A DNA stretch of 64,000 nt from Escherichia coli (GCF_017348835.2 NZ_CP071375.1), one strand, 5' to 3'; positions 43,320 to 43,690 are shown, counted from the first letter of the stretch. The notes: generated by a model from the sequence alone, not told the origin. Program-made: numbers and translations.

Positions 43320-43690
43320 GGAAGGGGTGGATAGCCGTTTTTATTCACCTTTTCTGTGGATAGAGTTGTGAAGAACTACGGAATTACTACGGGAAAACCC
43401 GGAGCATTCTGAATAAGCCCGATATAGACATTTTAAAATATTCATTATCAGTCAATGCATTACATGTAATTTAAGTAATGAAAAAGAGTAATTCGTGACC
43501 CAGGTCACACCTCTCTTTTACGGGTTGGCGAAAGATCAACCAATGCCGTATTTATCCACAGAATGTGCCACTAAGTTAAGCACTGAACCACTAAAAACTG
43601 GAGTTTCGTCGCACGTCAAGGCTGTAAATGGAAACAGTAGTGGAGGTTTTTCACAGTTATCCCAGCTTTCTGTGGATAACATGGTGTAAG
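43320..43690. promoter_or_regulatory. DnaA-box cluster in the rppH-mutH intergenic region, consistent with DARS2 (DnaA-reactivating sequence 2)
   Basis: Seen in sequence: three closely spaced DnaA-box-like 9-mers at 43327-43364 (GTGGATAGC, TTATTCACC, TGTGGATAG) plus perfect consensus boxes TTATCCACA (43552-43560) and TGTGGATAA (43671-43679). From established knowledge, DARS2 lies in the mutH-ygpD(rppH) intergenic region of E. coli. Confidence 0.55.

What the first reader, a model, noticed from the sequence alone, without database searches (positions are those of the whole stretch)
43320..43690. Cluster of DnaA boxes between rppH and mutH (DARS2-like replication-initiation regulatory element)
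The 684-bp non-coding interval between rppH and mutH carries three tightly spaced DnaA-box-like 9-mers (43327-43364) and two perfect consensus boxes, TTATCCACA (43552) and TGTGGATAA (43671), in opposite orientation. A cluster of this density outside oriC is not expected by chance and fits DARS2, a chromosomal site that regenerates ATP-DnaA from ADP-DnaA with IHF and Fis. The track ORFs in this interval (43495-43689, 43707-43922) are probably not genes.
Basis: partly seen in the sequence, partly recalled or inferred. Interest (0 to 1): 0.5.

Follow-up and report, generated by a model that had tools for sequence, protein, structure and literature searches.

The report
DARS2 DnaA-reactivating site of E. 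coli

Summary
The window is E. coli (ptsP-rppH / mutH-ygdQ-ygdR-tas). The 684-bp rppH-mutH spacer (43184-43867) contains DARS2 itself, not merely something like it. The primers that define the published 455-bp DARS2 fragment match exactly and bracket 43318-43772. That stretch is 453/455 identical to MG1655, and both differences lie in spacers.

All published sites map:
- core DnaA boxes I-III: 43341-43375
- box IV: 43408-43416
- IHF sites IBS1-2: 43434-43462
- FBS1: 43486-43500
- FBS2-3 and the critical 21-mer: 43527-43551
- box V: 43552-43560
- box VI: 43671-43679
- FBS6: 43728-43742

The clustering exceeds chance. Published DnaA ChIP-seq peaks fall at about 43330, 43512 and 43707.

- Its first "box" (43326-43334) has two mismatches, is not conserved and is not a published box.
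- It missed box III.
- DARS2 runs on to 43772.
- RefSeq annotates a 48-aa ORF, ygdT, on the minus strand. That frame, like the two plus-strand ORFs, is broken in five other genera.

Side observations:
- The distances between sites are fixed across six enterobacterial genera.
- Some conserved blocks have no assigned function.
- A module of DARS core, IHF site and distal DnaA box is widespread in Gamma- and Betaproteobacteria.

Verdict: already known, low interest.

The parts
43318..43772 (.). DARS2, the published 455-bp functional fragment (primers MutH-4 / MutH-2)
   Evidence: Both primers match exactly at the two ends. 453/455 identical to MG1655. The spacer is present in 5424 of 5426 complete E. 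coli genomes.
43318..43550 (.). Minimal DARS2 (the deltaRight construct pOA67, primers MutH-4 / MutH-11)
   Evidence: Primer mapping. Kasho 2014 shows that this part is enough to stimulate initiation.
43341..43349 (+). Core DnaA box I, TTATTCACC (1 mismatch)
   Evidence: Inside the 43341-43375 segment that is removed by deltaCore (MutH-14/15) and by the MutH-9/10 'DnaA box I-III' replacement. Conserved in six genera.
43355..43363 (-). Core DnaA box II, CTATCCACA (1 mismatch), inverted relative to box I after a 5-bp spacer
   Evidence: Sugiyama 2019 describes the opposed boxes I/II and states that DARS2 box II has a single mismatch.
43367..43375 (-). Core DnaA box III, TTCTTCACA (1 mismatch), 3 bp from box II and in the same orientation
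   Evidence: With box II it forms the 'double DnaA box' gTTCTTCACAactCTATCCACAg listed for DARS2 in the ChIP-seq paper.
43408..43416 (-). DnaA box IV, TTATTCAGA (1 mismatch)
   Evidence: It lies in the gap between substitution primers Ksh-30 and Ksh-31. Assigning this primer pair to box IV is my inference from its position. Boxes IV-VI are reported as dispensable in plasmid assays.
43434..43446 (+). IHF-binding site IBS1, TAAAATATTCATT (1 mismatch to TAAnnnnTTGATW)
   Evidence: Exact match to the published IBS1-2 block. It lies 3 bp from IBS2, as the paper states.
43450..43462 (-). IHF-binding site IBS2, TAATGCATTGACT (1 mismatch)
   Evidence: The centre of IBS1-2 is about 90 bp from the core centre and about 90 bp from the FBS2-3 centre. 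This matches 'about equidistant' in the 2025 paper.
43486..43500 (.). Fis site FBS1 (perfect GnnYAnnnnnTRnnC on both strands); non-essential
   Evidence: Oligo FIS-1U matches exactly and the consensus scan finds the site. Role taken.
43527..43548 (.). Fis sites FBS2 (43527-43541) and FBS3 (43534-43548), essential for activation. The critical 21-mer is 43531-43551.
   Evidence: Oligo F23U and primers MutH-24/25 match. The FBS2 sequence comes from Miyoshi 2021 Suppl. Fig. S1. The FBS3 frame is inferred from the consensus and from the substituted bases. The AAAGATC motif is conserved across genera.
43530..43572 (.). Box V and the low-affinity ATP-DnaA boxes around it: V-c (about 43531-43538), V-b (about 43542-43549) and V-a (about 43564-43572)
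   Evidence: Positions are those of the substituted bases in the subV-a/b/c oligos. The exact 9-mer frames are not given in the text I could read.
43552..43560 (+). DnaA box V, TTATCCACA (perfect); nucleates the ATP-DnaA oligomer that displaces Fis
   Evidence: Primers Ksh-32/33 and the subDnaA box V oligo map here. It lies at +211 from box I in all six genera.
43537..43576 (.). Stretch that contains Fis sites FBS4-5 (non-essential)
   Evidence: Oligo F45U matches exactly. Role taken.
43615..43629 (.). Block GTCAAGGCTGTAAAT, nearly invariant (one substitution, in Pantoea), at +274 from box I; no function assigned
   Evidence: Identical in five genera, with a single substitution in Pantoea. At +274 in five genera and +273 in Yersinia. 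It lies in the 'right half', which is dispensable on plasmids.
43671..43679 (-). DnaA box VI, TTATCCACA (perfect). With CTTACACCA (43682-43690) it forms a 'double DnaA box'. The conserved block spans 43657-43705.
   Evidence: (Ksh-34/35). At +330 in five genera and +329 in Yersinia. The strongest ChIP-seq peak, 213-fold, maps to about 43707.
43728..43742 (.). Fis site FBS6, GTTGCAGTGTTGCGC (non-essential)
   Evidence: Oligo FIS-4U and the sequence in Miyoshi Suppl. Fig. S1 match.
43536..43682 (-). ygdT, a 48-aa ORF annotated in RefSeq that runs from box VI to box V; probably not a conserved gene
   Evidence: Annotated. The frame lacks a start codon and/or has in-frame stops in Enterobacter, Serratia, Yersinia, Photorhabdus and Pantoea. 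No NCBIfam model matches.
42653..43183 (-). rppH (RNA pyrophosphohydrolase), left flanking gene
43868..44557 (+). mutH (mismatch-repair endonuclease), right flanking gene
   Evidence: The only promoter-like match lies at 43808-43835, outside DARS2.

Best explanation
The element is DARS2 (DnaA-reactivating sequence 2) of E. coli. The mechanism below is taken from the published work on the identical K-12 sequence.

1. ADP-DnaA, the spent form of the replication initiator, binds the three core boxes (43341-43375).
2. The protomers on the opposed boxes I and II meet head-to-head through their AAA+ domains (Gln208). The box III protomer stabilises them head-to-tail.
3. IHF binds IBS1-2 (43434-43462), midway along the element, and bends the DNA. 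The bend brings Fis bound at FBS2-3 (43527-43548) next to the core complex.
4. ADP is released, and the freed apo-DnaA takes up ATP. This raises ATP-DnaA before the next initiation at oriC.
5. Once ATP-DnaA is high, it oligomerises from box V (43552-43560) over the low-affinity boxes V-a/b/c and displaces Fis. That switches DARS2 off, a negative feedback.

What is shown here: sequence identity with K-12 DARS2, the position of every site, non-random clustering, and conservation of the sites and their spacing across genera. What is inferred by identity with K-12 and not tested on this strain: the biochemical activity.
For: - Published oligonucleotides map exactly. MutH-4 and MutH-2 bracket 43318-43772, which is 455 bp. 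The deltaCore primers and the MutH-9/10 primers leave out 43341-43375. The IBS, FBS1, FBS2-3, FBS4-5, FBS6 and box IV/V/VI primers and oligos all match.
- The spacer aligns with MG1655 without gaps, 680/684 identical, and the DARS2 stretch is 453/455 identical. The differences (43473, 43516) lie in spacers.
- The gene context rppH / ygdT / mutH is that of K-12, and the spacer is in 5424 of 5426 complete E. coli genomes.
- The core has the same 9+5+9+3+9 layout as DARS1.
- The clustering is beyond chance.
- Published DnaA ChIP-seq gives three DARS2 peaks that convert to window positions of about 43330, 43512 and 43707. Enrichment is 78-, 199- and 213-fold, comparable with oriC and datA.
- The sites, and their exact distances from box I (+211, +274, +330), are kept in Enterobacter, Serratia, Yersinia, Photorhabdus and Pantoea, while the sequence between them is not.
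Against: - No activity assay exists for this particular strain.
- The window differs from K-12 at two spacer positions inside DARS2.
- The IHF consensus is recognisable at one mismatch or fewer only in E. coli and Yersinia among the six genera compared, and no other genus has a perfect Fis consensus. Conservation of the regulatory sites is therefore less clear than that of the DnaA boxes.
- RefSeq annotates a protein-coding gene, ygdT, over the right half of the element.
Confidence: 0.97

Rival explanations
1. The boxes are operator sites through which DnaA controls transcription of mutH, rppH or ygdT, and not a nucleotide-exchange element.
For: DnaA acts as a transcription factor at several of its ChIP-seq sites. 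A consensus box, TTTTCCACA at 43798-43806, abuts the -35 hexamer of the only promoter-like match upstream of mutH, at 43808-43835. Box VI sits on codons 2-4 of ygdT.
Against: Direct biochemistry and genetics on the identical sequence show nucleotide exchange. The promoter-like match is no better than shuffled controls give (1 found, 1.8 expected). Box 43798-43806 lies outside DARS2 and is not conserved in other genera. As an additional role for the right half this idea is not excluded.
Confidence: 0.02
2. The conservation reflects a small protein gene (ygdT, or one of the plus-strand ORFs), and the DnaA-box matches are incidental.
For: RefSeq annotates ygdT in essentially all E. coli genomes.
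Against: All three frames are interrupted or lack a start codon in the five other genera. Only the residues encoded by the DNA sites are kept (LST from box VI, FTALT from the +274 block, SVDK from box V). Conservation comes in islands, with length-preserving divergence between them. There is no NCBIfam model and no relevant literature.
Confidence: 0.02
3. It is a DnaA sink or an inactivating site of the datA type, which lowers free DnaA or ATP-DnaA instead of raising it.
For: Like datA it combines a DnaA-box cluster with an IHF site and shows equally strong ChIP enrichment. Box V does bind ATP-DnaA as part of a negative feedback.
Against: datA lies at another locus (upstream of yjeV). The core here has the opposed box I/II layout specific to DARS. 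Deleting the K-12 element lowers ATP-DnaA and extra copies cause over-initiation.
Confidence: 0.01
4. The cluster is a chance accumulation of AT-rich 9-mers in an intergenic region.
For: The region is AT-rich, 59% against 49% for the whole window. The total number of consensus boxes in the window is not unusual.
Against: None of 200 simulations reached the observed clustering. The 30-nt core pattern was found in none of 100 shuffles. The sites are conserved at fixed distances in six genera.
Confidence: 0.005

Closest known systems
DARS2 of E. coli K-12 (Fujimitsu 2009; Kasho 2014; Miyoshi 2021; Kasho 2025)
   Same: Same locus (rppH-mutH), same 455-bp extent, 453/455 identical, and every mapped DnaA, IHF and Fis site identical.
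   Different: Two substitutions in spacers (43473 A for T, 43516 T for A). No functional difference is expected.
DARS1 of E. coli (bioD-uvrB spacer)
   Same: The core has the same layout: box I, 5 bp, inverted box II, 3 bp, box III (L003 208-242 against window 43341-43375). Same reaction: ADP release from DnaA through a head-to-head dimer.
   Different: DARS1 is about 100 bp, needs no IHF or Fis, and has a perfect box II. DARS2 has one mismatch in each core box and depends on IBS1-2 and FBS2-3.
datA (the DDAH site)
   Same: A non-coding cluster of DnaA boxes plus an IHF site whose occupancy changes through the cell cycle. ChIP enrichment is comparable.
   Different: It has the opposite effect, stimulating hydrolysis of DnaA-bound ATP. 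It has no opposed box I/II core, does not need Fis, and lies at a different locus.
oriC
   Same: DnaA boxes of graded affinity combined with IHF and Fis sites, and cooperative ATP-DnaA oligomers on low-affinity boxes, as at box V with V-a/b/c.
   Different: DARS2 has no duplex-unwinding element and starts no replication. At oriC the boxes are arranged head-to-tail.

Membership tests
DARS2 | Lies in the spacer between rppH (ygdP/nudH) and mutH | tested here: met
   ORFs and RefSeq annotation. The literature places DARS2 upstream of mutH.
DARS2 | Sequence identity with the experimentally defined 455-bp fragment | tested here: met
   The bracketing primers match exactly and span 455 bp. 453/455 identical to MG1655.
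DARS2 | Core of three DnaA boxes, with I and II opposed and III following II | tested here: met
   43341-43375, with layout 9+5+9+3+9 and one mismatch per box. Matches the descriptions.
DARS2 | IHF sites IBS1-2 between the core and the Fis sites, 3 bp apart | tested here: met
   43434-43446 and 43450-43462, an exact match to the published block.
DARS2 | Fis sites FBS2-3 within the critical 21-mer next to box V | tested here: met
   43527-43551. Oligos F23U, MutH-24/25 and FBS2-5 match exactly.
DARS2 | DnaA occupies the element in vivo | not testable with these tools
   Published ChIP-seq for MG1655 shows three peaks that convert to about 43330, 43512 and 43707. No data exist for this strain.
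DARS2 | IHF- and Fis-dependent release of ADP from ADP-DnaA, and stimulation of initiation | not testable with these tools
   Shown for the K-12 sequence and inferred here from near-identity.
DARS core (shared by DARS1 and DARS2) | Pattern TTATNCAC-N6-TGTGGATA-N4-TGTG | tested here: met
   One match in the window, at 43341-43370, and none in 100 shuffles. E. coli DARS1 matches the same pattern.
datA | Locus upstream of yjeV with datA boxes 2, 3 and 7 around a single IHF site | tested here: not met
   Different locus and a different box arrangement.
Conserved protein-coding gene (ygdT) | Open reading frame kept in related genera | tested here: not met
   No start codon and/or in-frame stops in five genera. 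No family model matches.

The most novel reading that the evidence does not exclude
Two things go beyond what the papers I could read assign.

(a) The 'right half' of DARS2 is dispensable in plasmid assays. Yet box V, the near-invariant block GTCAAGGCTGTAAAT (43615-43629) and the box VI block (43657-43705) keep exact distances from the core (+211, +274, +330) in six enterobacterial genera, while the sequence between them diverges. This suggests a fixed protein-DNA architecture whose role is still unassigned.

(b) Enterobacterial DARS2 may be a derived, Fis-using variant of a much wider module. That module has a DARS core, an IHF consensus at +120/+121 and a distal DnaA box at about +204. It occurs, often twice per genome, in many Gamma- and Betaproteobacteria in unrelated gene contexts. 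In those bacteria the distal DnaA box could play the part that Fis plays in E. coli.

The sequence patterns are observed. Their function, and whether they have been described before, are not established here.
Probability: 0.35. Interest if true: 0.5.

Novelty: already known. Interest (0 to 1): 0.1.

Why it matters
DARS2 is the main site that regenerates ATP-DnaA, and so it helps set the timing of chromosome replication in E. coli. Recognising it in raw sequence is a good check on the first-stage reader, but it adds nothing new about E. coli. The side observations could matter more. Spacing that is fixed to the base pair, together with unassigned conserved blocks, points to parts of the DARS2 complex that are not yet explained. 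The widespread module of core, IHF site and distal box would give a concrete set of candidate DnaA-recharging sites in Pseudomonas-, Legionella-, Neisseria- and Nitrosomonas-type bacteria, for which the papers I could search describe none.

Tried and rejected
- Rfam found no RNA family in 43100-43950, even at E-value 1.
- The promoter and terminator scan gave one weak promoter-like match upstream of mutH, no better than shuffled controls, and hairpins that coincide with the palindromic FBS1. None of this was used as evidence.
- Literature on ygdT: the hits were the polymerase motif YGDTDS or misprints of YdgT/Cnu. A narrower search found nothing on a YgdT protein.
- NCBIfam gave no family for YgdT or for either plus-strand ORF.
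- I tried to read the conserved blocks left of the core (43286-43317) as an rppH promoter by eye. No convincing -35/-10 pair is conserved, so they remain unexplained.
- Gene context of the Pseudomonas and Legionella core copies: NCBIfam gave only an FKBP-type isomerase, a MerR-type regulator and a short-chain dehydrogenase as neighbours. There was no link to uvrB, mutH or dnaA.
- One literature query was too broad and returned nothing useful.
- The supplement of the 2025 paper, which would give the box I and box II oligos, is not held. Boxes I-III were therefore assigned from the deletion end-points and from the 'one mismatch each' statements.

Full report
**What the window is.**
The ORFs around the finding are ptsP and rppH on the minus strand and mutH, ygdQ, ygdR and tas on the plus strand. 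The 684-bp rppH-mutH spacer (43184-43867) occurs in 5424 of 5426 complete E. coli genomes at 95-100% identity. RefSeq gives the same gene order for K-12 MG1655 and other strains. The window is therefore E. coli chromosome.

**Checking the observation.**
- The two perfect boxes are at 43552-43560 (+) and 43671-43679 (-).
- The left-hand cluster contains TTATTCACC (43341-43349, +), CTATCCACA (43355-43363, -) and TTCTTCACA (43367-43375, -). Each has one mismatch.
- The total number of consensus boxes in the 64 kb is unremarkable: 8 found against 5.5 +/- 2.2 expected. Their clustering is not.
- Both perfect TTATCCACA of the window lie inside one 455-bp stretch. None of 200 Markov simulations produced this.
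- That stretch holds 8 sites with at most one mismatch to TTWTNCACA. The best 455-bp span in the window holds 9, and the largest value in the simulations was 7.

**Identity with DARS2.**
I mapped the oligonucleotides from the primary papers on to the window.
- Primers MutH-4 and MutH-2, which amplify the 455-bp DARS2 fragment used by Kasho et al. 2014 (PMC4245941), match exactly at 43318-43336 and 43754-43772. The distance between their outer ends is exactly 455 bp.
- The inside-out primers for deltaCore (MutH-14/15) leave out 43341-43375. So do the recombineering arms that Frimodt-Moller et al. [quoted passage not shown]
- The other sites were placed in the same way. Box IV is at 43408-43416, IBS1 at 43434-43446 and IBS2 at 43450-43462. 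The two IHF sites are 3 bp apart, as published.
- FBS1 is at 43486-43500, FBS2 at 43527-43541 and FBS3 at 43534-43548. The critical 21-mer is 43531-43551, and FBS4-5 lie within 43537-43576.
- Box V is at 43552-43560. The low-affinity boxes V-c, V-b and V-a lie around 43531-43538, 43542-43549 and 43564-43572. Box VI is at 43671-43679 and FBS6 at 43728-43742.
- The spacer aligns to MG1655 without gaps, with 4 substitutions in 684 bp. Within DARS2 it is 453/455 identical, and the two differences (43473, 43516) lie between sites.

**Binding in vivo, from the literature.**
A DnaA ChIP-seq study of MG1655 (PMC11317965) lists three DARS2 peaks at 2969124, 2969306 and 2969501, enriched 78-, 199- and 213-fold. 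For comparison, oriC reaches 218-fold and datA 213-fold. Using the gene coordinates of NC_000913.3, these convert to window positions of about 43330 (core), 43512 (FBS1 to box V) and 43707 (box VI). The two 'double DnaA boxes' the study quotes for DARS2 are boxes III+II (43355-43375) and box VI with CTTACACCA (43671-43690). The paper says its coordinates refer to NC_000913.2, but they only fit the genes in version .3.

**How it works.**
This comes from published work on the identical sequence.
1. ADP-DnaA binds boxes I-III.
2. The protomers on the opposed boxes I and II interact head-to-head through AAA+ residue Gln208, and the protomer on box III supports them head-to-tail.
3. IHF at IBS1-2 bends the DNA, and negative supercoiling favours this binding.
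4. The bend brings Fis bound at FBS2-3 to the core complex, where it contacts DnaA.
5. ADP leaves, and apo-DnaA rebinds ATP.
6. When ATP-DnaA is abundant it oligomerises from box V across V-a/b/c and displaces Fis.

In the window the IBS centre (about 43448) is about 90 bp from the core centre (about 43358) and about 90 bp from the FBS2-3 centre (about 43538). This fits the 'about equidistant' layout described in 2025. Shown here: the sequence, the positions and the conservation. Inferred from identity with K-12: the activity.

**Related sequences.**
E. coli DARS1 has the same core layout: TTATCCACT-ATTCC-TGTGGATAA-CCA-TGTGTATTA. A naive estimate of chance hits is about 2. tblastn with the flanking proteins identified DARS2 orthologues between rppH and mutH in Enterobacter, Serratia, Yersinia, Photorhabdus and Pantoea. 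It identified DARS1 orthologues upstream of uvrB in Enterobacter, Yersinia, Photorhabdus, Vibrio, Shewanella and others.

The alignment of the six DARS2 spacers shows conserved islands separated by sequence that cannot be aligned. The distances, however, are fixed. Box V starts at +211 from box I in all six genera. The block GTCAAGGCTGTAAAT lies at +274 (+273 in Yersinia), box VI at +330 (+329 in Yersinia), and AGTTATAAACA at -34 in all six. This is independent support for a structure in which spacing matters, as the published 5-bp and 10-bp shift experiments indicate. IHF and Fis consensus matches are much less clear outside E. coli.

**The ORFs.**
Only the amino acids encoded by the DNA sites recur. 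There is no family model and no relevant literature. Conservation here is at the DNA level. ygdT is most likely an ORF that exists by accident between boxes VI and V.

**Rivals.**
Three readings were considered: a purely transcriptional role for the boxes, a datA-like sink, and a chance cluster. Each is contradicted by the published biochemistry on the same sequence, by the DARS-specific opposed box pair, or by the statistics and cross-genus conservation. An additional regulatory role for the right half is not excluded.

**Novelty.**
The finding is DARS2, described in 2009 and dissected repeatedly since.

**Beyond the finding.**
Among 109 core hits with enough flanking sequence:
- An exact IHF consensus falls in the +120 to +139 bin in 21. 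Every other 20-nt bin holds 0-3.
- A DnaA box in the orientation of boxes II/III lies at +180 to +219 in 56.
- 41 have both, mostly at +120/+121 and +201 to +207.

These modules occur in many Gamma- and Betaproteobacteria, next to unrelated genes that I identified by eye (priA, hemW, xseA, selO). None lies next to dnaA or mnmG. Fourteen genomes have exactly two copies. At the positions the search pattern left free, the hits follow the DnaA-box consensus, so the third element is a real box. The papers I could search mention DARS-like sequences only in relatives of E. coli and in Vibrio cholerae. I could not read Fujimitsu et al. 2009, so I cannot claim that this is new.

Noticed in passing
L004-L123 (genome-contig hits of TTATNCAC-N6-TGTGGATA-N4-TGTG): The DARS core layout is far more widespread than Enterobacterales. 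Hits include Pseudomonas, Legionella, Thiomicrorhabdus, Lysobacterales, Neisseriaceae, Burkholderiales and Nitrosomonadales. The positions the pattern left free follow the DnaA-box consensus, and 14 genomes have exactly two copies.
   Followed up: partly
e.g. L049 12355-12570, L017 2827-3040, L045 5641-5850, L064 (minus strand), L029 5694-5905: 41 of 109 cores carry an IHF consensus (WATCAANNNNTTR) starting at +120/+121 and also a distal DnaA box at about +201 to +207 in the orientation of boxes II/III. This is a core, IHF site and distal box module of about 215 bp, found in diverse Gamma- and Betaproteobacteria next to unrelated genes. Enterobacterial DARS2 looks like a derived variant of it.
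   Followed up: partly
window 43341 / 43552 / 43615 / 43671; L071, L072, L095, L109, L023: The distances from box I to box V (+211), to the GTCAAGGCTGTAAAT block (+274) and to box VI (+330) are the same in six genera, with one 1-bp exception in Yersinia. The sequence between these sites cannot be aligned.
   Followed up: yes
window 43615-43629 and 43657-43705: Two strongly conserved blocks lie in the 'right half' of DARS2, which is dispensable in plasmid assays. The papers I read assign them no function. The second block holds box VI, its half-partner GGTGTAAG and a conserved GATC at 43690.
   Followed up: partly
window 43286-43296 and 43307-43317: ATAACTCACAG and AGTTATAAACA are conserved in all six genera. 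The latter contains TTATAAACA, a 1-mismatch DnaA box, and lies at a fixed -34 from box I. Both are just outside the published 455-bp fragment, on the far side of the point where the tet marker is inserted in 'DARS2 WT-tet' strains. They could belong to the rppH promoter or be further DnaA sites.
   Followed up: no
window 43536-43682 (minus strand): The RefSeq gene ygdT starts directly on box VI and ends just past box V. Its frame is not kept outside E. coli, so it is probably not a real conserved gene.
   Followed up: yes
window 43534 and 43690: The spacer has only two GATC (Dam) sites. One is inside FBS2/FBS3/V-c and the other is next to the box VI double box. Both are conserved in five of six genera. 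Hemimethylation after the replication fork passes might affect binding there; I did not look into this.
   Followed up: no
L125 (NZ_CP084026.1), about 1662-2990: One E. coli genome (035053C1pKPC2_Vir_090515B1, source 'conjugation') has an IS4-like ISVsa5 element inserted in DARS2 at about window position 43447, inside IBS1-2. It separates the core from FBS2-3 by about 1.3 kb, which should disable IHF/Fis activation.
   Followed up: partly
L056, L058, L060 (two copies), L062 (Legionella nagasakiensis): At least 8 core copies occur in one genome. Five of them share a dispersed repeat of about 320 bp around the core, which looks like a mobile or amplified element carrying a DARS-type triple box.
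   Followed up: partly
L006, L008, L011, L018, L024, L025, L042, L053, L065, L097 and others (Pseudomonas): A nearly invariant core, TTATCCACACAAATTGTGGATAACCTTGTGAACAG, lies 15-30 nt upstream of the start codon of a divergent gene of about 151 aa (MKAPWNFARFLPLAGRLL...). It is not next to uvrB or mutH.
   Followed up: partly
window 16900-17105, 20120-20162, 21590-21883, 50308-50389: Rfam hits elsewhere in the window are GcvB, the ES036 sRNA, three identical tRNAs and a single OmrA-B hit. From memory, K-12 has adjacent omrA and omrB, so I expected a second copy and did not check for it.
   Followed up: no
PMC11317965, Table 1: The DnaA ChIP-seq paper states that its coordinates refer to NC_000913.2. 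The DARS2 and DARS1 coordinates fit the genes only in NC_000913.3.
   Followed up: yes
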